This document shows, in pieces, positions 4,447 to 24,307 of a DNA stretch of 64,000 nt. Source of the stretch: Candidatus Saccharimonadota bacterium (GTDB taxonomy: Bacteria > Patescibacteriota > Saccharimonadia > CAILAD01 > BJGX01); contig JACPPH010000002.1 in the NCBI GenBank assembly GCA_016191105.1, positions 67,268-131,267 on the forward strand, given 5' to 3'. The notes beneath the pieces were generated by a model. It was not told where the DNA came from, did not search any database, and saw only the letters and a list, made by a program, of their open reading frames with translations. Numbering within the stretch: the stretch's first letter is position 1; each line of letters begins with the position of its first letter. Made by a program: the position numbers and the translations under genes.

Positions 4447-5992
4447 GACCTTTAAGAAATATCTGCCGCTAATCCTGCTGCTGTTAGTTATTGGTTTGGC
4501 AGTGTTCTTTAGGTTCTGGCAGTTGTGGAAATTGCCGCCCGGGCTTCATCCCGACGAAGCTGCGAATGGCCTAGATATTTTCAAGATGTTCGATCGTTAT
4601 GACTTTCGGATTATTTATAACACCAATGGTCCTAGAGAAGCCCTGTTTTTTTATTTGCAAGCAATTTTTGTAGCCTTTATGGGCAGCACAACACTAGCCT
4701 TGCGAATGGCGCCGGCTCTTGGCGGAGTGGCAGCGGTGGTGGTTGTTTATTTCTTGGCCAAAGATTGGTTTGGTCGCCGTGCGGGCTTATTGGCGGCCTT
4801 TATTATGGCTGTAAACCCATGGGCCGTGATAATCACTAGAGATGGTTTTAGAGCCAGCCTGGTGCCTTTGTTTGTGGCTCTAACTGCGTTGCTGGCAGGC
4901 AAAGCCTACAAAACCTCGCGGATTGTGTATTTTGTGTTGGCCGGAGCTGTTTTTGGGCTTGGTTTTTATAGCTATACAGCCTTCTCGTTGTTTTCCCTGG
5001 TGCCTGCGGCTGGGTTGATTTATATGCTGCTTTTCAGGCGCCTCTGGCTAAGGGCAAATTTAAAAAAGCTTGGCATAGCCCTACTTACAACCTTGATAGT
5101 TCTAACACCACTTGTTGTTACAATTGTTCGGAATCCTGGCGATTCAGTTGCCCGGGCTGGCGGTACCAGCGTGCTTAATAGTCAGCTCAATGGTGGCCGG
5201 CCGCTGCAAGCGTTTGCTAGCGGTGTTGGTAAGACGTTGCTCCAATACAATCTGTTTGGCGATGAAAATCCGCGCCACAATGTACCGGGCGAACCACTGC
5301 TGAATACGTTTGTAGGTATTATGATGATTCTGGGCTTAGGCGTTTGTTTTTTACGTTTCAAGCGCATTGCTTACGCGGCCACTATAGCCCTGTTCTTTGT
5401 TATGATGTTGCCGGCGGTTTTAACGGCCGAAAGCCTGCCCCATGCCTTGCGCAGCGTTGGCACCGAAGTTGGAGCCTTTCTGCTAGCCGCCATTGGCATT
5501 AACTATTTACTTCAAAAGTGGTATAAAACATTTCCGGTTAATGCACCGGCTCGCAATTTGGGCCTGGTCTTGATTTGCGGCCTGCTGGTGTTGACCGCAG
5601 TTCAGGGCTACCGGGCCTATTTTGTGGCTTGGGCTCAGGACCCCGAAACATATTCTGCTTATTCAGAAAACATGACTTCAATCGCCAACTACCTTAACAG
5701 TTCTAAAGGCAGTGACCGCAAATATTTGGTAGCAGACGAATACAGCGCCAAACCTGTCGAATATCTAACTCACTATAAATCGTCTTATGATCTTTTAGAT
5801 CAAGCTTCTTTGCGCAGCCTACCGCTTACCAACGGCCAGAAATTGTTTATTATTCCGGCTGGTGACCAATCCAGCTCCGAAATCGATTTAATAAAAAGTA
5901 AATTTCCTGGTGGCACAATAACACCGCGCTATTCTGATTTTAGCGGAAAGGCTCTATTCTACACCTACGAGGTGAACTACAGTGGCAGTTGA
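4421..5992 (+). CDS. ArnT/PMT-like (GT39/GT83) membrane glycosyltransferase
   Basis: Multi-TM protein. 'HPDEAANG' resembles the aminoarabinose/mannosyltransferase DE motif in the first periplasmic loop. Confidence 0.7.
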   Translation: MKSKSNKLETFKKYLPLILLLLVIGLAVFFRFWQLWKLPPGLHPDEAANGLDIFKMFDRYDFRIIYNTNGPREALFFYLQAIFVAFMGSTTLALRMAPALGGVAAVVVVYFLAKDWFGRRAGLLAAFIMAVNPWAVIITRDGFRASLVPLFVALTALLAGKAYKTSRIVYFVLAGAVFGLGFYSYTAFSLFSLVPAAGLIYMLLFRRLWLRANLKKLGIALLTTLIVLTPLVVTIVRNPGDSVARAGGTSVLNSQLNGGRPLQAFASGVGKTLLQYNLFGDENPRHNVPGEPLLNTFVGIMMILGLGVCFLRFKRIAYAATIALFFVMMLPAVLTAESLPHALRSVGTEVGAFLLAAIGINYLLQKWYKTFPVNAPARNLGLVLICGLLVLTAVQGYRAYFVAWAQDPETYSAYSENMTSIANYLNSSKGSDRKYLVADEYSAKPVEYLTHYKSSYDLLDQASLRSLPLTNGQKLFIIPAGDQSSSEIDLIKSKFPGGTITPRYSDFSGKALFYTYEVNYSGS

Positions 5993-6752
5993 TTTAAGTA
6001 TAGTTATACCGACCTTAAACGAAGCCAAGCGAATAGACTCAGCTCTTAGGGAGTTGTCAGCTTATTTGCGCAAGCAAAAGCAATCAGTTGAGGTAATAAT
6101 TGTGGATCTACATAGCCCTGACGGCACGGCCGAGCTTGCCAAAAAACAGGCCAAGGCATTTGAGAGTCTAAAAGTTATTGATGCTGGGCCTAGGCCAAAG
6201 GGTAAGTTCCTTAAGGGCAAGCAGGTTAAATTGGGGGTAATGGCTGCCAAGGGTCGCTACATTATGTTTATGGATGCCGACCTGGCGACTCCACTCAAGT
6301 ATATCGACAATGTATTTGCGCTTATGAAAGAAGAGAAACCGATAGCCATTTGTGTGCGTGACTTGCAAAGTAGCCATACCGGACTGCGTAAGTTTATCTC
6401 TGGGGTAGGCAACTTTTTGGTTCAACTAATCCTGCTGCCGGGGATAAAAGACACCCAGTGTGGCTTTAAGGTTTTTGAGGCAGAGGCCGCTCGCCAAATA
6501 TTTAAACGACAACGGGTTGTTAGTTGGGGGTTCGACATGGAAGCTTTGGCTATTGCCCGCCGGCTGGGCTATAGAATAGATACTATCAGTGTGCCCGATT
6601 GGCACGATGTGGCCGGCGGTTCATTTGGCGGCAAGGCCATTAAATCTACCCTACAGACATTTTTTGATCTGGTAAGGATAAAGTGGTGGCTGATAACAGG
6701 TCGCTACAACAAGGCACGGGGCCATGGTGCAGAATCAGCCGAAATCGCTTAA
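5982..6752 (+). CDS. GT2 glycosyltransferase (polyprenol-phosphate sugar synthase-like)
   Basis: 'LSIVIPTLNEAKRI' and the 'FMDADL' DxD motif. Confidence 0.8.
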   Translation: MAVDLSIVIPTLNEAKRIDSALRELSAYLRKQKQSVEVIIVDLHSPDGTAELAKKQAKAFESLKVIDAGPRPKGKFLKGKQVKLGVMAAKGRYIMFMDADLATPLKYIDNVFALMKEEKPIAICVRDLQSSHTGLRKFISGVGNFLVQLILLPGIKDTQCGFKVFEAEAARQIFKRQRVVSWGFDMEALAIARRLGYRIDTISVPDWHDVAGGSFGGKAIKSTLQTFFDLVRIKWWLITGRYNKARGHGAESAEIA

Positions 6753-8214
6753 GCGGCCAATAATTAGACATTCGGCTATTGTGGTCGGTTTACTAACCCT
6801 GCTCGGCGTGGCTATAAGGTTTAGTTTTATTGCCAAGGCTAGCATTTGGCACGATGAGGCTTTCAGTATAATGCTGGCGAGCCGCAACCCGTTTAGTATT
6901 TGGGCATTGACGGCTCGCGATGTTCACCCGCCGCTTTATTATGAGCTGCTCCATCTATGGATTAATTTGTTTGGTCGCAGCGAGCTGGCAGTCCGCAGCT
7001 TGAGCGCTGTTGCTGGCGCGGCCGTAATCCCGATTGGTTATGTAGTGGCCAAAAAAGCTGCTGGTAGGAGAGCCGGCTATTTTGCACTAGTTTTTCTGGC
7101 TTTGGCGCCATTCCTGATTCGTTACTCGCAAGAGGCGCGCATGTATGGCTTGCTTGGTCTCGAACTGCTGCTAGCACTCTGGGCGGTTATGAATATTGTC
7201 AATAAACCAAGACAGTTTTGGGCTTATGCGGCCTTTGCCACAACCATCACCGCTGGTCTGTACACCCATTATTTTACGGTTTTGGCTGTTTTTAGCCTCT
7301 GGGCTTACCTGATTCTGTTACAGCCATTTAAGCAGTGGAGGCTCGAAAAAACCATTTGGCTAAGCTGGCGGTGGTGGGCGGCAAACATTGTAGCCTTAGT
7401 TTTGTTTCTACCTTGGCTGCCCAGTATGTTGGCGCAGCTCAAGCGCGGCCAAGGCCTAAGCTGGTTGCAACCAACCAGCACTAGAACCGCATTTGACACG
7501 GTGTGGCAATTTCTAACCTTTACCGATGGCCGCTTAACAAATATAGCTTATTGGCTAGTTGGCTTGGTCGTGGTCGCGATGATGGTATGGCTTTGGCAGG
7601 GCGATAAAACCAAACAACGGTTTACTCGCTTAGTAGTGCTGTACACGGCTCTGCCAATTACGATTGGCATTGTGGTGTCGTTGTTTAAGCCAGTGTTCCA
7701 TGAGCGTTATTTTGCCTTTGCAGCGATCGGCTTTTATATTTTACTGGCTTTAATGGTGGACAGGATTTACCGGCTCAATCTCTGGCTGGCCATAGTGGCG
7801 GGGCTGCTGATTTGTGCTGTTGAAGTTGTCGGCATTCGTAACGTTTATGCACAGAGCAATCACCAAATGCGAGCTGAAATGGCGGTGCTAAACGATGGCT
7901 TTCGACCGGGCGATATTATTGTTTCGGGCGAGCTCTACACTTATTTTGATAGTACCTACTACAACTCTACTGGCCAGCGTTTATTGCTTTATACGGGAGT
8001 TGCCGGCAGACCCAATGGCTATGGCGAGTCGAGTCTTATATACGATCAAAACGTCTATCTGGATAGTTATACAGAAATCCCAGTTGGTTCAAGGGTGTGG
8101 CTGGTGGGCAAAACCGGCGATCGCAGCTATTACAGCCAGGTGCCGGCCAGCTGGCAGCTGCAACAGCAGTCTGAGTCGGGCTATAGCGAAGTCCGACACT
8201 ACCTGGTAAAATAA
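6724..8214 (+). CDS. ArnT/PMT-like (GT39-type) membrane glycosyltransferase, second copy
   Basis: Multi-TM protein with 'WHDEAFS' and 'VHPPLYY' motifs. Confidence 0.65.
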   Translation: MVQNQPKSLKRPIIRHSAIVVGLLTLLGVAIRFSFIAKASIWHDEAFSIMLASRNPFSIWALTARDVHPPLYYELLHLWINLFGRSELAVRSLSAVAGAAVIPIGYVVAKKAAGRRAGYFALVFLALAPFLIRYSQEARMYGLLGLELLLALWAVMNIVNKPRQFWAYAAFATTITAGLYTHYFTVLAVFSLWAYLILLQPFKQWRLEKTIWLSWRWWAANIVALVLFLPWLPSMLAQLKRGQGLSWLQPTSTRTAFDTVWQFLTFTDGRLTNIAYWLVGLVVVAMMVWLWQGDKTKQRFTRLVVLYTALPITIGIVVSLFKPVFHERYFAFAAIGFYILLALMVDRIYRLNLWLAIVAGLLICAVEVVGIRNVYAQSNHQMRAEMAVLNDGFRPGDIIVSGELYTYFDSTYYNSTGQRLLLYTGVAGRPNGYGESSLIYDQNVYLDSYTEIPVGSRVWLVGKTGDRSYYSQVPASWQLQQQSESGYSEVRHYLVK

Positions 8215-17746: not shown

Positions 17747-17821
17747 TGGGGCGTAGCCAAGTGGTAAGGCACCGGTTTTTGGTACCGGCATTCGCAGGTT
17801 CGATCCCTGCCGCCCCAGCCA
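17747..17821 (+). tRNA. tRNA-Gln (anticodon UUG)
   Basis: Cloverleaf with a 7-bp acceptor stem UGGGGCG/CGCCCCA and a U1:A72 pair typical of bacterial tRNA-Gln. D-loop 'AGTGGTAA', anticodon loop 'tt-TTG-gt', T-arm 'GGTTCGATCC', encoded CCA. Very similar to E. coli tRNA-Gln. Confidence 0.9.
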
Positions 17822-18179: not shown

Positions 18180-18518
18180 ATGATTTCCGGGGTAAAAAGT
18201 AAGTTATTTACAACCTTGGTTACCATAGCGTTGCTGCTTGGTGGTTTAGCGATATTAAATTTCTACTCAATGTCAATGCAGCCCACCAGCGAACATTTCG
18301 ACTACAACACAACCTGTAAAATTGCTTGCTTTGGCCAGGCTATTGGTAATCTTGGTGCCGCTCCTACTAATCCTGAAAGTTTGGTACTAGTTTTATCGTT
18401 TGCAGGGCTGGTGGCTGGGTTTGCTGTCGGTACAACTAACACCGGGGTCTTTAACAAGGCCTTTCGTTATAGCCTAGGGCCGCCGCTCTACAAACGCTTT
18501 GAGTCTTATCGTGATTAA
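18180..18518 (+). CDS. hypothetical small membrane protein
   Basis: Two TM helices. Leaderless: TGtTACAAT at 18165-18173, then 6 nt, then the ATG. Confidence 0.4.
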   Translation: MISGVKSKLFTTLVTIALLLGGLAILNFYSMSMQPTSEHFDYNTTCKIACFGQAIGNLGAAPTNPESLVLVLSFAGLVAGFAVGTTNTGVFNKAFRYSLGPPLYKRFESYRD

Positions 18519-18564
18519 AAAAATCTCTTGTAGTAGAAAGTACTTTACAAATTAAGGAGATAAT

Positions 18565-19101
18565 ATGAAATCTAAAATATGGCCTGTAGTGATAGGCTTA
18601 AGCGTGCTCGCGGTTGCGCTGTTTATCGGATTCGCTATTACTCGCCCCGATGTACCGCCAGGGCAGGCAAAGACCTCAAACACCACAAATAAATCAACTG
18701 ACTCCAATATAGTCTCGAACAGTGAGATCCATTGGCACCCAAAATTAGCGGTATATATTAACGGACAAAAACAAGAGATTCCAGCCGAAACAGGAATTGG
18801 TCAGCAGTATGCCAAAAGCCGTTGGTATGATTCTATGATGCAAATGGCGAACATACATACTCACGACAATAGTGGTCAATTGCATTGGGAAGTAATGGAG
18901 GGCCCGGTTCGAAAAGACCAAGTTCGTTTGAGTGCGTTTTTTGACGTTTGGGACAAGAAGTTCAGCAAAATCCAGGTGTTCGACAAGACCGACCCTAAAG
19001 GGTCAAAAATCACCATGACTGTTAATGGCCAGCCTAACAGTGAATTCGAAAACTACATGGTGGCCGACAATGATCAGATTGAAATAAAGTATCAAGATTA
19101 A
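18565..19101 (+). CDS. membrane-anchored secreted protein with His motifs (HWH, HTHD)
   Basis: N-terminal TM/signal region, RBS AAGGAG, His-rich motifs. It sits at the head of the metal-homeostasis cluster. Confidence 0.45.
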   Translation: MKSKIWPVVIGLSVLAVALFIGFAITRPDVPPGQAKTSNTTNKSTDSNIVSNSEIHWHPKLAVYINGQKQEIPAETGIGQQYAKSRWYDSMMQMANIHTHDNSGQLHWEVMEGPVRKDQVRLSAFFDVWDKKFSKIQVFDKTDPKGSKITMTVNGQPNSEFENYMVADNDQIEIKYQD

Positions 19102-19111
19102 CAGGGAGATA

Positions 19112-19546
19112 ATGATGAAGCAGGAATCAATACTATATGGTGTGATTGGCTTACTAGTGGGTGTACTGTTGGCTATGTTTGTGTCAGCCATTGTTGCTAA
19201 TTCACAAAACCAAACAATGATGCGAGCGATGTGCATGAACACGGGCAACGGAATGAATGGCTCGTCGATGAGCATGGAGAATATGACGAACCAGCTCAAA
19301 GCCAAGTCTGGTAGTGAGTTTGAGAGGGCCTTCTTAGAACAAATGACTGTACACCACCAAGGGGCTATTGGTATGGCTAACCTGGTCTTACAAAAGTCCA
19401 CAAGACCGGAGTTGCGCAAACTTGCCGAAGACATCGTTGCTGCTCAGACCAAAGAAATCAACCAAATGAAAGAGTGGCAAACACAGTGGAGCTATGCAAC
19501 TAGTTCTAGCTCAAATAGTAGTAATATGGGTGGAATGGCTAATTAA
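19112..19546 (+). CDS. DUF305 family protein (often associated with metal resistance)
   Basis: 'VHHQGAIGMA..LRKLAEDIVAAQTKEINQM' is the DUF305 signature. N-terminal TM helix. Confidence 0.65.
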   Translation: MMKQESILYGVIGLLVGVLLAMFVSAIVANSQNQTMMRAMCMNTGNGMNGSSMSMENMTNQLKAKSGSEFERAFLEQMTVHHQGAIGMANLVLQKSTRPELRKLAEDIVAAQTKEINQMKEWQTQWSYATSSSSNSSNMGGMAN

Positions 19547-19637
19547 GTAAAAGTTTGCAGCTTTGTTGCCAACACAACTGAGCACTAACAGGTTAGCTGC
19601 TAGTTATAACGCCGATGCACAAGGCGGGGCTTGATTA

Positions 19638-19654
19638 ATACCCCTCAGGGGTAT
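19638..19654. promoter_or_regulatory. candidate CsoR/RcnR-type operator ATACCCC-tca-GGGGTAT overlapping the -10 region of the repressor gene
   Basis: Perfect 7-bp-arm palindrome with C/G tracts directly abutting the TACAAT -10 box (19654-19659). The ATG is at 19669. Confidence 0.6.
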
Positions 19655-19668
19655 ACAATAAAATCAAT

Positions 19669-19953
19669 ATGAATGCTGATATAAAAAAGCGCTATGTCCA
19701 TCGCACGAGGATTATCGAGGGTCAAATCCAAGGCCTACAAAAAATGATAGACAGTGAAGCCTATTGTATGGATGTATTGACGCAGAGCTTGGCTATTCAA
19801 CGGTCGCTCGCATCATTAAACAAGCTAGTGCTCGAGAACCATTTACGCACTCACATTACAGATATGTTTGGGGCCGGCGATAGCAAAGCCCAAAAAAAAG
19901 CGGTTGCTGAGCTGCTAAGCCTATACGAACTTAACAACATTCGGGGTAAGTAA
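19669..19953 (+). CDS. CsoR/RcnR/FrmR-family metal-sensing transcriptional repressor
   Basis: 94 aa. X-Y-Z residues C33, H58 and H62 with RcnR-like 25/4 spacing. Confidence 0.8.
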   Translation: MNADIKKRYVHRTRIIEGQIQGLQKMIDSEAYCMDVLTQSLAIQRSLASLNKLVLENHLRTHITDMFGAGDSKAQKKAVAELLSLYELNNIRGK

Positions 19954-20231
19954 TGTTAGGCAAGCGTTTGCGGGAGTTTATGCGGTGTCATCAGGGCAAA
20001 GTTAACCTATTGCTACATGTTGTTGGTTATTCTCTGGTTGGTGTTGGTATTTGGCAGAAGAGTTTCTGGTATGTGATTGCGGGTGCGATAGTTCAAGAGC
20101 TTGGTCATTTTTATCAGTACGTCAAGACCAAAAACTACAAAGACAGCCCACTTTATTGTCTAAGATCGCAGGTATTATTTGCGCTGCCGGCTTTAAGCTT
20201 AATACTTATTTACATTTGGATAGCACGGTAA
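19953..20231 (+). CDS. hypothetical small membrane protein co-encoded with the repressor
   Basis: 92 aa with 2-3 TM helices. Its start overlaps the repressor stop. Confidence 0.4.
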   Translation: MLGKRLREFMRCHQGKVNLLLHVVGYSLVGVGIWQKSFWYVIAGAIVQELGHFYQYVKTKNYKDSPLYCLRSQVLFALPALSLILIYIWIAR

Positions 20232-20376
20232 GTTGCCAAAAATGACTATAGCCAACCCCGTTCATCACGGCAGCCAACAAGATAGCGCTAAACATGCTGG
20301 CCGCCTAATAGCTATGTTTAGCAATAAGTTTTAGGAAGGTATTAACCAACAATTTAAGTCACAAAGATTAACAATA

Positions 20377-22533
20377 ATGGAGTCAAAAATGTCTAAACAT
20401 CAAATCAATTCTAATAACGAAGCCATGCAAGGCATGACAGAATCAGAACATCATATGCATCACATGTCTGAGGGAAACATGACACGGTGGCAGAAATTTA
20501 AAATGAGTATGACTATGACCATGGGTATGGATCATAGCGGACTGGCCGGCCGCGAAATGGCCAAAATGATGGAAATAGACATTCGCAATAAATTCTTTTT
20601 TGCTCTAATACTATCTGTGCCGATCATTGCTTATTCGCCACTCGGAACTAGCATTCTAAAGTTGAGCTTGCCCCAGCCGATCCCGGCAGCTTGGATACTG
20701 TTGATTCTTACGACACCGGTATTCTTCTATGCCGGCTGGATATTTTTGTACTCTAGCTATCATGCGCTAAAAGCCAGGACACTCAATATGGCTGTTTTGA
20801 TTGCGGTTGGTATATCGGCGGCGTATTTTGCAAGTATTTTGCTGACCTTGGTAGGCAGTTCGGAATCGTATTATGAGGCTGCTGCTCTGTTGATTACTTT
20901 CGTGTTGTTTGGTCACTGGATGGAAATGAAGTCTCGGCGCGGAACAACCGATGCCTTACAGGCTCTGTTTGATCTGGTGCCACCTCAGGCCCGGCTAATA
21001 CGGGGCAATAAAGAGGTTATGGTATCGACCAGCGAGGTGCGAGTTGGCGACATCTTGGTATTAAAACCGGGCGACAAAGTTCCGGTTGACGGCGAAGTGA
21101 TAAGTGGTCAAACGTCTATCGATGAAGCCCTTGTAACGGGCGAGTCGCTACCTGTTAGTAAACAAAAGGGTGACCCCGTAACCGGCGGATCTATCAATCA
21201 ATCTGGAACCGTCCGAATCAAGGCTACCAAGGTAGGATCAGATACGGTTTTGGCTCAAATTGTTAAAATGGTTGAAAACGCCCAAAACTCCAAGGCGCCT
21301 GGCCAGCGCCTGGCCGATAAATTTGCCGGCTATTTAGTAATCTTGGCCATATCGGCTGGGTTGCTAACCTTTGCGGCTTGGGCTGTGTTTTCTAATCAGG
21401 GTTGGCTATTTGCACTAACCCTAGCAATATCGGCTGTGGTAATAGCCTGCCCCGATGCACTTGGCCTAGCCACGCCCACCGCCGTAGCCGTGGGCACTGG
21501 TTTGGGTGCCAAACATAACATTCTTATAAAAGATGCTGCTACGCTTGAGCAAACTGCCAAGATCCAAGCCGTTGTACTCGACAAAACTGGCACTCTCACC
21601 GAAGGCAATCCCCAGGTTACCGATGTAGTAAGCGTGGCTGGTTTCAAAAAAGACCATCTTATAGAATTGGTTGCCGCCGCCGAGGCTGGCTCTAGCCACC
21701 CCTTGGCGCAAACCATCATCAACGAAGCTCATAAGCGCCGCCTTAAGTTGGTGGCCGTCAAGCGGTTTAATAATATTGCTGGGCTTGGTGTGGAAGCGGT
21801 GGTAGAAGGTAAGCGAGTACTGGTAGGAACCGAGCGGCTTATGAAAAATCGCAAGCTCTCAACTAAAGCCATTCAGGCCGACATCGACAGGTTGCTAGCA
21901 GAGGGCAAGACCCTCATGATTATTGCCATTAACGACAAGGTATCTGGTGTTATAGCGGCCTCGGACAAGATTAAGCCGACCGCCCAAAATGCCATTACCG
22001 CTATGCAGCAACTTGGTTTAGAGATTGTTATGATTACTGGTGATAATCAGAAGACCGCAGACATCGTTGCTAAGCAACTAGGTATTAAGCGTTATTTTGC
22101 CGAGGTCTTGCCTGCCCAAAAAGAAAGTTATGTAAAAAAACTTCAAAGCGAAGGCCGGTTTACGGCTATGGTTGGAGATGGGGTTAACGATGCGCCGGCG
22201 TTAGCCCAAGCCGATATTGGTATTGCTATCGGGGCGGGTACAGATGTGGCTATAGCAACAGCAAAAATTGTTTTAATGAAGTCTGATCCGACCGATATCA
22301 TAAGGGCTATTCGTTTGAGCAAAGCCACTATTCGTAAAATGAAGCAAAATTTAGGCTGGGCGAGTGTCTATAACATTGCTGCCATTCCTATTGCTGCCGG
22401 AGTATTATATCCAGCTTATGGCGTTTATCTTAGACCAGAGTTCGCGGCGCTTCTAATGTCGGTTTCGTCAATTTTTGTGGCCGTGAATGCGGTTATGCTA
22501 AAACGGGCCGAAAAGCAGCTGTTAACGGTGTAG
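20377..22533 (+). CDS. heavy-metal-translocating P1B-type ATPase (CopB-like) with an atypical CPD TM6 motif
   Basis: 'DKTGTLT', 'GDGVNDAPAL', TM7 'YN....P', TM8 'MSVSS.....N'. Met/His-rich N-terminus (HHMHHM, MSMTMTMGM) with no CxxC HMA domain. TM6 reads 'CPDALGLATPTA' (tgc ccc gat). Confidence 0.88.
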   Translation: MESKMSKHQINSNNEAMQGMTESEHHMHHMSEGNMTRWQKFKMSMTMTMGMDHSGLAGREMAKMMEIDIRNKFFFALILSVPIIAYSPLGTSILKLSLPQPIPAAWILLILTTPVFFYAGWIFLYSSYHALKARTLNMAVLIAVGISAAYFASILLTLVGSSESYYEAAALLITFVLFGHWMEMKSRRGTTDALQALFDLVPPQARLIRGNKEVMVSTSEVRVGDILVLKPGDKVPVDGEVISGQTSIDEALVTGESLPVSKQKGDPVTGGSINQSGTVRIKATKVGSDTVLAQIVKMVENAQNSKAPGQRLADKFAGYLVILAISAGLLTFAAWAVFSNQGWLFALTLAISAVVIACPDALGLATPTAVAVGTGLGAKHNILIKDAATLEQTAKIQAVVLDKTGTLTEGNPQVTDVVSVAGFKKDHLIELVAAAEAGSSHPLAQTIINEAHKRRLKLVAVKRFNNIAGLGVEAVVEGKRVLVGTERLMKNRKLSTKAIQADIDRLLAEGKTLMIIAINDKVSGVIAASDKIKPTAQNAITAMQQLGLEIVMITGDNQKTADIVAKQLGIKRYFAEVLPAQKESYVKKLQSEGRFTAMVGDGVNDAPALAQADIGIAIGAGTDVAIATAKIVLMKSDPTDIIRAIRLSKATIRKMKQNLGWASVYNIAAIPIAAGVLYPAYGVYLRPEFAALLMSVSSIFVAVNAVMLKRAEKQLLTV

Positions 22534-22675
22534 ATCGACTATTGGTAAGCGCCCTAGCTTAAGTAGTGTATCGCAACTTACGGCCAGATTTTTAGAGGAG
22601 TGCTTACCGATAGCTAACGATTGTGGTAGTAGCCAATGCCTAGGTGTTTTGTAAAACTAAGTTATAATTGTGGTT

Positions 22676-23551
22676 ATGCATAGCCACGACCGCCAGGCCT
22701 CAAGGTCTTTTAAGTTTGTAATTGGATTTATATTAAACACTGGCTTTACGGTGTTGGAGTTTGTTGTCGGCATAATGGCTGGCAGTTTGGCTCTTGTTTC
22801 AGATGCCTCGCACAATTTAACCGACTCGCTGAGTATAGCCATTGCCTTTGGTGGCGAGCGAGTGTCTAGTCGTCAGGCCAATGATAGCAAGAGTTATGGC
22901 TTTGGCCGGGTTTCGATTGTCACAGCTCTTATAAATGGCGTATTGCTATTCGCGGTGGCTGCCTATATTTTTTACGAAGCTTATTTACGAATCTTGAACC
23001 CCGAACCGGTCAAAGGGGGTTTAGTTGCAATTGTGGCCTTGGCTGGCATTCTTATAAATGGTGTAGTGGCTTTGCTGTTTTACAAAGACAAAGACGACCT
23101 CAATGTTAAAAGTACCTTCTTAAATATGGCCTTTGATACGCTTAGCTCGGTCGGCGCAATGATTGCTGGTCTTATTATACTCGTAACCGGCAATACGCTG
23201 GTCGATCCAATAATTGGCATCCTAATTGGCTGTATGCTTGTTTTTAGTGCCTATGGCGTGGTTCGGGATGCTTTACACATATTGTTAGAGGGTACCCCCA
23301 AAGATATCGATAGTTCTGAAATTGCTAATTTTATCTTGTCGTTCCCGCATGTCAAAGGAGTAGACGATCTACATATATGGTCGATCTCGTCGCATTATCT
23401 AGCTATGAGTTGCCATATTGTTATTGAAGAGGAAAATTTGCAGAGTAGCGTTGACCAAGTTAAGGCTATTAAAAAACAACTGCTAGGCAAATATCAAATC
23501 CAGCACGCCACGATTGAGACCGAGCTTAAGCATTGCGAGCCAAAGCACTAG
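22676..23551 (+). CDS. cation diffusion facilitator (CDF) family transporter
   Basis: TM1-2 'SLALVSDASHNLTDS' and the C-terminal cytoplasmic domain. Leaderless: TATAAT at 22663-22668, then 7 nt, then the ATG at 22676. Confidence 0.85.
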   Translation: MHSHDRQASRSFKFVIGFILNTGFTVLEFVVGIMAGSLALVSDASHNLTDSLSIAIAFGGERVSSRQANDSKSYGFGRVSIVTALINGVLLFAVAAYIFYEAYLRILNPEPVKGGLVAIVALAGILINGVVALLFYKDKDDLNVKSTFLNMAFDTLSSVGAMIAGLIILVTGNTLVDPIIGILIGCMLVFSAYGVVRDALHILLEGTPKDIDSSEIANFILSFPHVKGVDDLHIWSISSHYLAMSCHIVIEEENLQSSVDQVKAIKKQLLGKYQIQHATIETELKHCEPKH

Positions 23552-23689: not shown

Positions 23690-24307
23690 TTACTTATTTT
23701 TGCGTAGAGAACGGAGTTTGAGTGTAAGCCCTGTTAGGGCGCCGCCAGCCAACGCCACCGAAAGAGTGTCGGCTCCTCCGCCGGTGGTAGGTAGAGCAGG
23801 TGTGCTAAGAGCTACCGTGGGAGTTACGGGTGCTGGGGGTGGAGTTGGTTTGCATTCTGCGCCGCCATGGCTCGAAGACACAAACTGACCTGCAGTGTAG
23901 TCGTTGGTATTGCCACTTGGCCCAAATGGGCTTAAGCCGCGCAGCAAATCGATCTGGTAAAAGCACTGGGGCTTTTTGACTGTTAGACTACTAAAACCAG
24001 CTGGAAATGTTCCGCTTTTGGAATCTACAAACTTTTGCTGATCAAATGGCTTGCCGTCAACGCCATTGGGCGCGTCCCAGGCGGCTACAGTCACATCTTT
24101 AGTGCAAGCAGTGCTGTCGACTGTATTCTTTACCTCGAAGGTAGCGGTAACAGTATCGGCACCAACCGAATAGCTTCTGGCAAAAACTTCACATTTGTTA
24201 TTTGGTTGATCTGCAGCTTTGGCTACATTACCTGCATGAAAGCCAACCCCAACAACTGCGGCTGCAATTGTCAGGACTCCATAATTAACTATTTTACGAA
24301 CATTCAT
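23690..24307 (-). CDS. LPxTG-anchored cell-surface protein (sortase substrate)
   Basis: N-terminal signal peptide. C-terminal 'LPTTG', then a hydrophobic stretch, then 'KLRSLRKNK'. Pro/Ala/Thr-rich stalk. Confidence 0.75.
   Translation of the reverse strand: MNVRKIVNYGVLTIAAAVVGVGFHAGNVAKAADQPNNKCEVFARSYSVGADTVTATFEVKNTVDSTACTKDVTVAAWDAPNGVDGKPFDQQKFVDSKSGTFPAGFSSLTVKKPQCFYQIDLLRGLSPFGPSGNTNDYTAGQFVSSSHGGAECKPTPPPAPVTPTVALSTPALPTTGGGADTLSVALAGGALTGLTLKLRSLRKNK

What the first reader, a model, noticed from the sequence alone, without database searches (positions are those of the whole stretch)
20377..22533. P1B ATPase with a non-canonical CPD transmembrane motif and a Met/His-rich N-terminus
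TM6 reads CPDALGLATPTA (codons tgc ccc gat) instead of the canonical CPC (Cu+/Zn2+), CPH (CopB) or SPC (Co2+). TM7 (YN....P) and TM8 (MSVSS.....N) resemble the CopB-like P1B-3 group. The N-terminus lacks a CxxC HMA domain and instead carries HHMHHM and MSMTMTMGM motifs. The paired repressor has an RcnR-like C-H-H (Ni/Co-type) ligand set rather than the CsoR Cu set. Substrate specificity is therefore unpredictable, and this may be an undescribed P1B subtype.
Basis: partly seen in the sequence, partly recalled or inferred. Interest (0 to 1): 0.6.

Follow-up and report, generated by a model that had tools for sequence, protein, structure and literature searches.

The report
CopB-like copper pump with Cys-Pro-Asp motif
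This is a real, intact metal-pumping ATPase from a Saccharibacteria-like genome whose unusual Cys-Pro-Asp membrane motif marks a large, previously noted but never tested branch of the CopB copper-pump lineage, and the evidence points to copper export under a copper-type CsoR repressor.

Summary
The ORF at 20377-22533 is an intact P1B ATPase with CPD (tgc ccc gat, 21448-21456). It has YN(x)4P and MSVSS(x)5N, a Met/His-rich N-terminus and no HMA/CxxC domain.

CPD is not an error. All 120 closest database proteins and all 80 species-level genome loci carry it, with both Asp codons in use.

It is not an undescribed subtype. A CPD subtype was reported in Rhizobiales in 2017, and I found it on Rhodococcus, Nocardia, Mycolicibacterium, Streptomyces, Pseudarthrobacter, Deinococcus and Bradyrhizobium plasmids. 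No biochemical study of it turned up in the library I could search.

CPD proteins group with CPH CopB pumps (neighbour-joining bootstrap 0.985). They share 8 signature residues that CPC CopA pumps lack. Asp360 is the only position found that is conserved in CPD proteins and absent from both CPH and CPC proteins.

The context points to copper. A perfect CsoR box, ATACCCCTCAGGGGTAT, overlaps the csoR promoter. Related loci recurrently hold CsoR, DUF305, YHS proteins, multicopper oxidases and adjacent CopA genes. The repressor's C-H-H ligand set matches Thermus CsoR-type copper sensors, not RcnR, because the N-terminal His is missing.

The most likely function is CsoR-controlled copper export. 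The metal and its oxidation state are untested.

The parts
20377..22533 (+). P1B-type ATPase of the CopB lineage with CPD in TM4 (older numbering TM6). The probable true start is ATG 20389 (714 aa).
   Evidence: ORF. Pfam E1-E2_ATPase 190 bits and Hydrolase 121 bits. TIGR01525 scores 616 bits and TIGR01511 596 bits, both above their cut-offs. It aligns end to end with A. fulgidus CopA 3J08/7R0G at E 1e-161. GGAG lies 6 nt before ATG 20389, and the 714-aa start is used in an independent assembly.
21448..21456 (+). Codons TGC CCC GAT, giving Cys358-Pro359-Asp360. Asp occupies the position of the second Cys of CPC and of the His of CPH.
   Evidence: Sequence read. It aligns with AfCopA 'vvaCPCafglatpta'. 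The motif is invariant in 120/120 and 80/80 relatives. Both Asp codons are used.
20449..20529 (+). Cytoplasmic N-terminal His/Met stretch, from HHMHHM (residues 25-30) to MSMTMTMGM (residues 43-51). It continues into the conserved MDHSGLAGREMAKMME segment just before the first membrane helix.
   Evidence: Positions. M[ST]M[ST]M[ST]MGM[DE]H is present in 107/120 close homologs. S44 M45 M47 M49 G50 M51 H53 G55 G58 R59 M61 are invariant in alignment A1.
19669..19953 (+). CsoR-family repressor (94 aa) with ligand pattern x-C33-H58-H62.
   Evidence: PF02583 at 78.5 bits. The closest solved relatives are copper CsoRs, including the C-H-H T. thermophilus protein. A CsoR-family gene lies within 5 kb of the CPD ATPase in about 30 of 80 related loci, and within about 80 nt in about a dozen of them.
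19638..19654 (.). CsoR operator-like perfect palindrome, ATACCCC-TCA-GGGGTAT.
   Evidence: It occurs once in the window and in 0 of 100 shuffles. It lies 14 nt upstream of the csoR ATG. The core TACCCCNNNGGGGTA sits just upstream of csoR in L002, L005, L006, L009, L027 and L056. It fits the C. glutamicum CsoR box ATACCCCnnnGGGGTAT quoted in PMC5057107.
19631..19659 (+). Promoter-like site (TTGATT, 17 nt spacer, TACAAT) that the CsoR box overlaps.
   Evidence: Consensus scan, 9 of 12 matches. This is a consensus match only, and the number of sites in the region is not above the shuffle expectation.
19953..20231 (+). Small hydrophobic protein of 92 aa. Its ATG overlaps the csoR stop (TAATG). It lies between csoR and the ATPase and its function is unknown.
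   Evidence: ORF and sequence. It has only sub-threshold Pfam hits (DUF6463, Mpo1-like). It is called as a gene in the independent assembly.
19112..19546 (+). DUF305 (CopM-like) protein with an N-terminal membrane or signal segment and a Met-rich stretch. It is a probable extracytoplasmic copper-binding protein.
   Evidence: PF03713 at 126 bits. NCBIfam CopM scores 73 bits, below its cut-off of 90. DUF305 genes lie near the CPD ATPase in 17-22 of 80 loci, and also in Deinococcus and Nocardia plasmids.
18565..19101 (+). Membrane-anchored His-motif protein of 178 aa and unknown family. It is a recurrent neighbour of the CPD ATPase.
   Evidence: No Pfam or PDB match. Homologs lie within 4 genes of the ATPase in 16 of the 81 loci examined.
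22670..23551 (+). CDF (ZitB/CzcD-like) divalent-cation exporter. It is adjacent here but is not a conserved partner of the pump.
   Evidence: PF01545 plus PF16916. TIGR01297 scores 255 bits. A CDF gene is found in only 3 of 80 related loci.

Best explanation
The gene encodes a functional copper-exporting P1B ATPase of the CopB lineage. An Asp occupies the position of the His of the CopB CPH motif, which is also the position of the second Cys in the CopA CPC motif. It most likely works like CopB. Cytoplasmic copper is captured by the Met/His-rich N-terminal tail and by the His/Met-rich entry region (LNM138, GHWMEM 179-184, D314). It is then passed to the membrane site formed by C358, D360, Y665/N666 and M694/S697/S698. 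ATP-driven phosphorylation of D402 drives it outward. Expression is probably controlled by the upstream CsoR-type repressor, which would bind the ATACCCCTCAGGGGTAT box over its own promoter and release it when metal-loaded. The DUF305 protein, and possibly the 178-aa His-motif protein, would handle copper outside the membrane. Shown here: the sequence features, their conservation, the lineage, the operator and the gene neighbourhoods. Inferred: copper as the substrate, its oxidation state (Cu+ favoured), co-transcription of csoR with the pump, and the roles of the tail and of the accessory proteins.
For: Lineage: in a 177-sequence neighbour-joining tree (662 columns), CPD plus CPH proteins form one clade with bootstrap 0.985, and CPH is monophyletic at 0.945. 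Eight non-motif positions (H180, W181, M184, L320, A324, G328, P638, A669) are shared by CPD and CPH proteins. CPD and CPH proteins match 5-8 of the 8, nearly all matching 8/8, whereas all 138 CPC proteins match 2 or fewer. D360 is the only position found that is conserved in CPD proteins and absent from both CPH and CPC proteins. D to H needs one base change. Cu-type residues are retained: the first Cys, YN(x)4P and MxxSS(x)5N, plus equivalents of AfCopA M158, E205 and D336 (residue roles from PMC9433437). All catalytic motifs are intact. Context in 80 Patescibacteria loci: CsoR about 30, DUF305 17-22, YHS proteins 14, multicopper oxidase 9. In 13 loci there is an adjacent canonical CopA (CPC, CxxC, YN, MxxSS) on the same strand, the classical copA-copB pairing. 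Eight of the neighbouring CsoRs are canonical Cu-type C-H-C, and one of these (L027) carries the same operator. The operator in the window is a perfect CsoR-type palindrome. The repressor's nearest solved relatives are copper CsoRs. CopB-type pumps are now regarded as Cu+ transporters (PMC10654040).
Against: No CPD pump has been assayed, so the substrate is inferred. A carboxylate is a harder ligand than Cys or His and could shift preference towards Cu2+ or another divalent ion. The C-H-H CsoR of T. thermophilus responds to several metals in vitro (PMC5057107). A Zn/Co-type CDF gene lies next to the pump in this window. On actinobacterial plasmids the neighbourhood is only partly copper-related: phosphoketolase, stress proteins and CbtA/CbtB appear in some. 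No CsoR box lies directly upstream of the ATPase, and a 145-nt gap separates it from the preceding ORF. The tree is neighbour-joining only and is sampled from the sequences most similar to the query. By raw score the best CPC hit (614 bits) exceeds the best CPH hit (575 bits).
Confidence: 0.68

Rival explanations
1. The Asp changes selectivity. The CPD pumps would then export Cu2+ or another borderline or hard divalent ion (Zn2+, Co2+, Ni2+, Fe2+) and form a functionally distinct P1B subgroup. The C-H-H repressor would sense that ion.
For: Asp is an oxygen ligand that favours divalent ions (general coordination chemistry). Asp360 is strictly conserved and never mixes with His or Cys within the clade, so it is under selection. 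In 13 of 80 loci a canonical CopA sits next to the CPD pump, which fits non-redundant roles. The C-H-H sensor type is reported to be less metal-selective in T. thermophilus. A CDF gene is adjacent in this window.
Against: Every other membrane ligand is of the Cu+ type (Cys, YN, Met, SS). The signatures of the Zn class (TM5 Lys, TM6 DxG) and the Co class (SPC, HEGxT) are absent. The Met-rich MxMxMxM tail is a Cu+/Ag+-type feature (general knowledge of Mets motifs). Conserved neighbours are copper genes: multicopper oxidase, DUF305, YHS and Cu-type C-H-C CsoRs. The CDF is present in only 3 of 80 loci. CopA-CopB pairs are also normal for copper.
Confidence: 0.17
2. The pump exports copper, but mainly to load extracytoplasmic copper proteins (multicopper oxidase, cupredoxin-domain proteins) rather than to detoxify. 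This would resemble the low-rate CopA2/FixI-type pumps.
For: Multicopper oxidases (9 loci) and HMA-DsbD_2-cupredoxin fusion proteins occur beside CPD pumps, and a separate CopA is present in 13 loci.
Against: Control by a metal-released CsoR repressor is the arrangement of a detoxification system. No multicopper oxidase or cupredoxin gene lies next to the pump in this window. Most loci (67 of 80) show no second pump within 5 kb.
Confidence: 0.12
3. The Asp codon is a sequencing or assembly error, or the gene is decaying.
For: None beyond the rarity of the motif in textbooks.
Against: CPD is present in 120/120 and 80/80 relatives with both Asp codons. The identical protein occurs in an independent assembly. 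The ORF is full length with all catalytic motifs.
Confidence: 0.01

Closest known systems
CopB-type (historical P1B-3) copper ATPases with CPH, e.g. Enterococcus hirae, Staphylococcus/Listeria and Archaeoglobus fulgidus CopB
   Same: Same clade (bootstrap 0.985) and the same 8 signature residues, including GHWxEM in M2. No CxxC HMA domain and a His-containing N-terminal tail. YN(x)4P is present. It is CsoR-regulated and paired with CopA in some genomes.
   Different: Asp replaces His in the TM4 motif. TM6 reads MSxSS rather than MSxST. The tail is Met-rich with few His, rather than poly-His. The 107/120-conserved MSMTMTMGMDH..GREM segment is specific to the Patescibacteria branch.
CPD subtype (group VIc) of Rhizobiales Cu-ATPases described by Cubillas et al. 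2017 (PMC5552934), and its relatives on actinobacterial, Deinococcus and Bradyrhizobium plasmids
   Same: CPD in TM6, YN(x)4P, MSxSS and few N-terminal His. The window protein is 47-53% identical to these plasmid proteins.
   Different: Those proteins are about 100 aa longer. They carry an HMA-like N-terminal domain without CxxC, plus a CGYHC motif. The window protein lacks that domain. Whether all CPD proteins form one clade is unresolved (bootstrap 0.08).
CopA-type (P1B-1) Cu+ ATPases, e.g. A. fulgidus CopA (3J08, 7R0G), L. pneumophila CopA (3RFU) and E. coli CopA
   Same: Best solved-structure matches at E 1e-161. TIGR01511 scores above its cut-off. The first Cys, YN and MxxSS motifs and the entry-site Met, Glu and Asp are shared.
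   Different: There is no second Cys and no CxxC HMA domain. At most 2 of the 8 CopB-lineage signature residues occur in any CPC protein examined.
Thermus thermophilus CsoR (PDB 3AAI) and the x-C-H-H cluster of copper sensors (PMC8643695)
   Same: The C-H-H ligand pattern is the same ('HLKDH' against 'HLRTH'). The gene lies next to a copper ATPase gene.
   Different: Sequence similarity is modest (E 7e-8). The window protein scores higher against the C-H-C CsoRs of Streptomyces and Mycobacterium.
E. coli RcnR (Ni/Co sensor, H-C-H-H)
   Same: The X-Y-Z positions are C, H, H.
   Different: There is no His at the N-terminal W position (the sequence starts MNADIKK). NCBIfam RcnR scores 38.5 bits against a cut-off of 138. 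The operator is of the interrupted C4-N3-G4 CsoR type. From memory, not checked here, the RcnR site is TACT-G6-N-AGTA.

Membership tests
P1B-type (heavy-metal) P-type ATPase | Catalytic motifs TGES, DKTGT, TGDN and GDGxNDxP, and an xPx motif in the TM helix before DKTGT | tested here: met
   All motifs located. TIGR01525 scores 616 bits against a cut-off of 346. Full-length alignment to CopA structures.
P1B-type (heavy-metal) P-type ATPase | Eight-helix membrane domain (MA, MB, M1-M6) | tested here: inconclusive
   The helix pattern of the AlphaFold model fits this topology, but membrane-domain pLDDT is below 50. The ungapped alignment to AfCopA supports it.
CopA / P1B-1 | CPC in TM4 | tested here: not met
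   The motif is CPD.
CopA / P1B-1 | YN(x)4P in TM5 and MxxSS(x)5N in TM6 | tested here: met
   YNIAAIP at 665-671 and MSVSSIFVAVN at 694-704.
CopA / P1B-1 | N-terminal HMA domain with CxxC | tested here: not met
   No HMA hit in Pfam, and no Cys in the N-terminal 100 residues.
CopB / P1B-3 | CPH in TM4 | tested here: not met
   Asp stands at the His position. This is invariant across relatives.
CopB / P1B-3 | MSxST in TM6 | tested here: not met
   The motif here is MSVSS. The CPD clade is mostly MSxSS, with a few MSAST (Deinococcus, Ca. Aquicultor).
CopB / P1B-3 | His-rich N-terminal tail without an HMA domain | tested here: inconclusive
   There is no HMA domain. The first 55 residues hold six His (H8, HHMHH at 25-29, H53), and the tail is dominated by Met.
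CopB / P1B-3 | Common descent with characterised CopB proteins | tested here: met
   The CPD plus CPH clade has bootstrap 0.985 and includes NCBI-named Listeria CopB. 8/8 lineage signature residues are shared. The tree is neighbour-joining only.
CopB / P1B-3 | Copper-stimulated ATPase activity or transport | not testable with these tools
   This needs biochemistry.
CPD subtype of Cubillas et al. 2017 | CPD in TM6 with YN(x)4P and MSxSS, and few N-terminal His | tested here: met
   Bradyrhizobium BTAi1 pBBta01 carries ACPDALGLATP and MSGSS.
CPD subtype of Cubillas et al. 2017 | Longer than CopB because of an extra N-terminal domain | tested here: not met
   The window protein is 714-718 aa, against 808-855 aa for the plasmid proteins.
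CPD subtype of Cubillas et al. 2017 | Single clade with the rhizobial CPD proteins | tested here: inconclusive
   CPD monophyly has bootstrap 0.08. CPD lineages and the CPH clade branch from an unresolved base.
CsoR-type copper sensor | PF02583 fold and closest relatives being copper CsoRs | tested here: met
   78.5 bits. PDB ranking is 4ADZ, 2HH7, 4M1P, 3AAI, all ahead of FrmR and InrS.
CsoR-type copper sensor | x-C-H-C ligand set | tested here: not met
   The set here is C33-H58-H62. It matches the x-C-H-H variant cluster of T. thermophilus CsoR.
CsoR-type copper sensor | GC-tract inverted-repeat operator over its promoter | tested here: met
   ATACCCCTCAGGGGTAT at 19638-19654, in 0 of 100 shuffles, and conserved upstream of csoR in 6 related loci.
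RcnR (Ni/Co sensor) | H-C-H-H set including His3 and the N-terminal amine | tested here: not met
   The N-terminus is MNADIKK, with no His at position 3. The RcnR model scores 38.5 bits against a cut-off of 138.

The most novel reading that the evidence does not exclude
The invariant Asp gives the CPD pumps a metal or oxidation-state preference different from both CopA and CopB, for example Cu2+ or another divalent ion. Alternatively it gives a different release mechanism through a protonatable carboxylate. Either way, CPD would mark a functionally distinct P1B subgroup. That subgroup would be the main metal pump of many Patescibacteria, and a natural H-to-D variant for probing the role of the third residue of the CopB motif.
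Probability: 0.17. Interest if true: 0.6.

Novelty: new member of a known kind. Interest (0 to 1): 0.3.

Why it matters
The textbook classification of P1B pumps lists CPC, CPH and SPC, and the CPD form is barely mentioned. Here it proves to be a large, strictly conserved branch of the CopB lineage. It is common in the reduced genomes of Patescibacteria and on actinobacterial plasmids, and no member has been tested. The metal and oxidation state carried by CopB pumps were first reported as Cu2+ and later revised to Cu+. A natural His-to-Asp replacement at the key position would therefore be a useful test of what the third motif residue does. In practice, the result says these genes can be annotated as probable CsoR-controlled copper exporters, and that a C-H-H CsoR next to them should not be read as a nickel/cobalt sensor.

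Tried and rejected
(1) Sequencing error: rejected, because CPD is conserved in 120/120 and 80/80 relatives with both Asp codons.

(2) RcnR-type Ni/Co regulation: rejected, because the W-position His is absent, copper CsoRs are the nearest relatives, and the operator is of the CsoR type.

(3) The CDF gene as part of the module: rejected, because it is present in only 3 of 80 loci.

(4) Structure prediction from 47 close homologs gave a poor model (mean pLDDT 58, membrane domain below 50). I therefore ran no fold search and used no structural argument about ligand geometry.

(5) The key classification papers are not in the held library: Smith et al. 2014 (PMC4119550), Purohit et al. 2018 (PMC5834730) and Meloni et al. 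2014 (PMC3947036). I could not check whether they mention CPD. The Cu+ reassignment of CopB is cited second-hand from PMC10654040.

(6) Literature searches for 'CPD' with P1B, CopB or ATPase terms, and for 'Cys-Pro-Asp', found only the 2017 Rhizobiales paper.

(7) Pfam and PDB searches for the 178-aa, 112-aa and 92-aa neighbours gave nothing significant.

(8) I looked for a second CsoR box upstream of the ATPase or elsewhere in the window and found none, even with up to 2 mismatches.
Full report
**Observation.** The ORF at 20377..22533 (+) encodes 718 aa.
- The codons TGC CCC GAT at 21448-21456 give C358-P359-D360 in 'VVIACPDALGLATPTA'.
- The TM motifs are present: YNIAAIP (665-671) and MSVSS(x)5N (694-704). 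The N-terminal motifs are HHMHHM (25-30) and MSMTMTMGM (43-51).
- All catalytic motifs are present: TGES, DKTGT, TGDN and GDGVND.
- Pfam finds E1-E2_ATPase and Hydrolase but no HMA domain.
- NCBIfam places the protein above the cut-offs of the heavy-metal (TIGR01525, 616 bits) and copper (TIGR01511, 596 bits) P1B models.
- The protein aligns without large gaps to A. fulgidus CopA structures at E 1e-161. Its CPD lies exactly over their CPC.
- The true start is probably ATG 20389. GGAG lies 6 nt upstream, and this start is used for the identical 714-aa protein in an independent assembly with the same gene order.

**Is CPD real?** Yes.
- All 120 best database homologs (72-100% identity) carry CPD.
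- So do all 80 matched genes in species-representative genomes.
- The Asp codon is GAT in 58 and GAC in 23 of these, so the residue is held by selection.
- By record title the genomes are almost all Patescibacteria: Saccharibacteria nearest (up to 82%), then Microgenomates, Parcubacteria, Dojkabacteria and WWE3 lineages at 63-72%. Some records carry clearly unreliable taxonomic labels.

**How far does CPD reach?**
- A filter-free search of 1.84 billion cluster representatives gave CPD proteins as the four best hits. Six CPD proteins were among the 150 listed (664-869 bits for the four best, 555-586 bits for two truncated ones). Two are named: Roseiflexaceae and Candidatus Aquicultor.
- Below them come CPC CopA-like proteins (up to 614 bits) and a few CPH proteins.
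- A translated search of plasmids found 47-53% identical proteins in Rhodococcus, Nocardia, Mycolicibacterium, Streptomyces, Pseudarthrobacter, Deinococcus and Bradyrhizobium BTAi1. The seven I fetched all read CPD with YN(x)4P. Six carry MSGSS and the Deinococcus protein carries MSAST.
- The literature already contains this motif. Cubillas et al. [quoted passage not shown]
- No other paper in the searchable library mentions it, and none characterises it.

**Which lineage?** I aligned 177 proteins. These were the window protein, 22 Patescibacteria CPD proteins, the other CPD proteins, 8 CPH proteins including NCBI-named Listeria CopB, about 135 CPC proteins including E. coli CopA and SilP, and E. 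coli ZntA as outgroup. I then built a neighbour-joining tree on 662 columns.
- CPD plus CPH proteins form one clade that excludes every CPC protein (bootstrap 0.985).
- CPH is monophyletic (0.945).
- The Patescibacteria CPD proteins form a clade (0.93) that joins the Roseiflexaceae protein (1.0).
- The order among CPD lineages and CPH is unresolved (CPD monophyly 0.08).

A column-by-column comparison, which does not depend on the tree, points the same way.
- Eight positions outside the classical motifs are shared by CPD and CPH proteins and rare in CPC proteins: H180, W181, M184, L320, A324, G328, P638 and A669.
- CPD and CPH proteins match 5-8 of the 8, and nearly all match 8. All 138 CPC proteins match 2 or fewer.
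- D360 is the only position found that is conserved in CPD proteins and absent from both CPH and CPC proteins.

So this is a CopB-lineage pump in which the third motif residue is Asp. Asp and His codons differ by one base.

**Residues that matter for copper.** Roles in AfCopA are taken from PMC9433437.
- The entry Met (M158) corresponds to LNM138.
- E205 corresponds to E183, within GHWMEM.
- D336 corresponds to D314.
- The high-affinity set C380, Y682, N683, M711, S714, S715 corresponds to C358, Y665, N666, M694, S697, S698.
- Only C382 is replaced, by D360.
- The signatures of the Zn/Cd and Co classes are absent.
- The N-terminal tail carries an MxMxMxM run. In the Patescibacteria clade it is part of a strongly conserved segment (MSMTMTMGMDH..GLAGREMAKMME; 107 of 120 homologs).
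- Some relatives add a YHS domain or a Cys-rich HMBD-type domain in front of the tail.

**Regulator and operator.**
- It lacks the N-terminal His that completes the RcnR H-C-H-H set.
- Its best solved relatives are copper CsoRs from S. lividans, M. tuberculosis and Geobacillus. T. thermophilus CsoR follows, and it has the same H-x3-H.
- NCBIfam ranks RicR (63 bits) over FrmR (40) and RcnR (38.5).
- A published network analysis defines an x-C-H-H cluster of copper sensors around T. thermophilus CsoR (PMC8643695).
- Fourteen bases upstream of the csoR ATG lies the perfect palindrome ATACCCCTCAGGGGTAT (19638-19654). It sits between a TTGATT and a TACAAT hexamer.
- The palindrome occurs once in the window and in none of 100 shuffles.
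- The same core lies just upstream of csoR in six related loci, including one whose CsoR is canonical C-H-C.
- It fits the C. glutamicum CsoR box as quoted in PMC5057107.
- Among the CsoR-family genes near CPD pumps, 16 are C-H-H, 8 are C-H-C and 5 are other patterns (the tally there also counts the window's own C-H-H gene). About a dozen lie within about 80 nt of the pump gene.

**Neighbourhood.** Clustering the four genes on each side of the pump in 81 loci gave these recurrent families:
- CsoR, in 20 loci (about 30 within 5 kb by tblastn).
- DUF305, in 17 loci.
- Homologs of the window's 178-aa His-motif protein, in 16 loci.
- Small YHS-domain proteins, in 14 loci.
- HMA-containing proteins, including HMA-DsbD_2-cupredoxin fusions and second ATPases, in 13 loci.
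- Multicopper oxidases, in 9 loci.

The 13 second ATPases are all canonical CopA and lie on the same strand: CPC in all 13, YN(x)4P and MxxSS in the 12 that are complete at that end, and CxxC in the 11 that are complete at the N-terminus. This is the familiar copA-copB pairing. The CDF gene downstream in this window is not a conserved partner (3 of 80 loci). On actinobacterial plasmids the context is mixed. DUF305, DUF2933, CsoR, HMA proteins and CopA appear in some. Phosphoketolase, stress proteins and CbtA/CbtB appear in others.

**Interpretation.** The best-supported reading is a CsoR-controlled copper exporter of the CopB lineage (confidence about 0.68).
- Cu+ is favoured because CopB pumps are now regarded as Cu+ transporters (PMC10654040) and because the remaining ligands and the Met-rich tail are of the Cu+ type.
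- The main rival (about 0.17) is that the invariant carboxylate shifts preference to Cu2+ or another divalent ion.
- A variant (about 0.12) is copper export mainly for loading extracytoplasmic cuproproteins.
- Error or decay is excluded.
- None of these can be settled without biochemistry.

**Limits.**
- The tree is neighbour-joining and is sampled from the sequences most similar to the query.
- The structure model was too poor to use.
- The three key classification papers could not be read, so an earlier mention of CPD there cannot be excluded.

**Verdict.** But the subtype has been reported before, the repressor is a copper-type CsoR and not RcnR-like, and the substrate is predictable as copper with moderate confidence. 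Interest is modest. The gene is a new member of a noted but untested subgroup, and the subgroup is worth a biochemical test.

Noticed in passing
window 18565-19101 (+): A 178-aa protein with an N-terminal membrane anchor and HWHP / IHTHD / HWE His motifs. It has no Pfam or PDB match. Homologs recur within 4 genes of the CPD pump in 16 of 81 loci, so it is a candidate uncharacterised extracytoplasmic metal-binding partner.
   Followed up: partly
window 17747-17821 (+) and 18180-23551: A tRNA-Gln gene sits directly upstream of the metal-gene cluster. GC falls from 0.55 to 0.44 across it. The independent Logan contig carrying the identical pump ends about 2.6 kb upstream of the pump gene, which is at about this tRNA. 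This may be an island boundary or a strain-variable junction.
   Followed up: no
loci L001-L080 (matches at about 5001-7150): The CPD pump is 63-82% identical across very distant Patescibacteria lineages (Saccharibacteria, Microgenomates, Parcubacteria, Dojkabacteria). This seems high for such deep divergence and suggests horizontal spread within the group.
   Followed up: no
L034 10171-11994 (+) and similar genes in other loci: Fusion proteins of an HMA domain (CxxC), a DsbD_2 membrane domain and one or two cupredoxin-like domains lie near CPD pumps in several Patescibacteria loci.
   Followed up: partly
L081 5638-8064, L082 5719-8160, L088-L091: CPD pumps on actinobacterial and Bradyrhizobium plasmids carry an N-terminal HMA-like domain whose CxxC is missing, followed by a conserved CG(Y/L)HC motif. 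Patescibacteria relatives instead have no domain, a YHS domain, or a CPxCG-type Cys-rich domain. The N-terminal module has therefore been swapped repeatedly.
   Followed up: partly
L081 1-9188 and L089 7162-10156: In Rhodococcus and Mycolicibacterium plasmids the CPD pump sits beside phosphoketolase. Rhodococcus also has beta-phosphoglucomutase-family and type II GAPDH genes there, and Mycolicibacterium has a general stress protein gene. This context is not obviously metal-related.
   Followed up: no
window 19654-19671: The -10-like TACAAT ends only 9 nt before the csoR ATG, and no Shine-Dalgarno sequence is visible. The csoR message may be leaderless or nearly so.
   Followed up: no
window 23690-24307 (-): A 205-aa secreted protein ends in LPTTG, followed by a hydrophobic stretch and a basic tail (a sortase-type anchor signal). 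It has no family match.
   Followed up: no
window 22670-23551 (+): A ZitB/CzcD-like CDF exporter lies directly downstream of the pump. It is present in the independent assembly as well, but is rare next to CPD pumps elsewhere (3 of 80 loci).
   Followed up: yes
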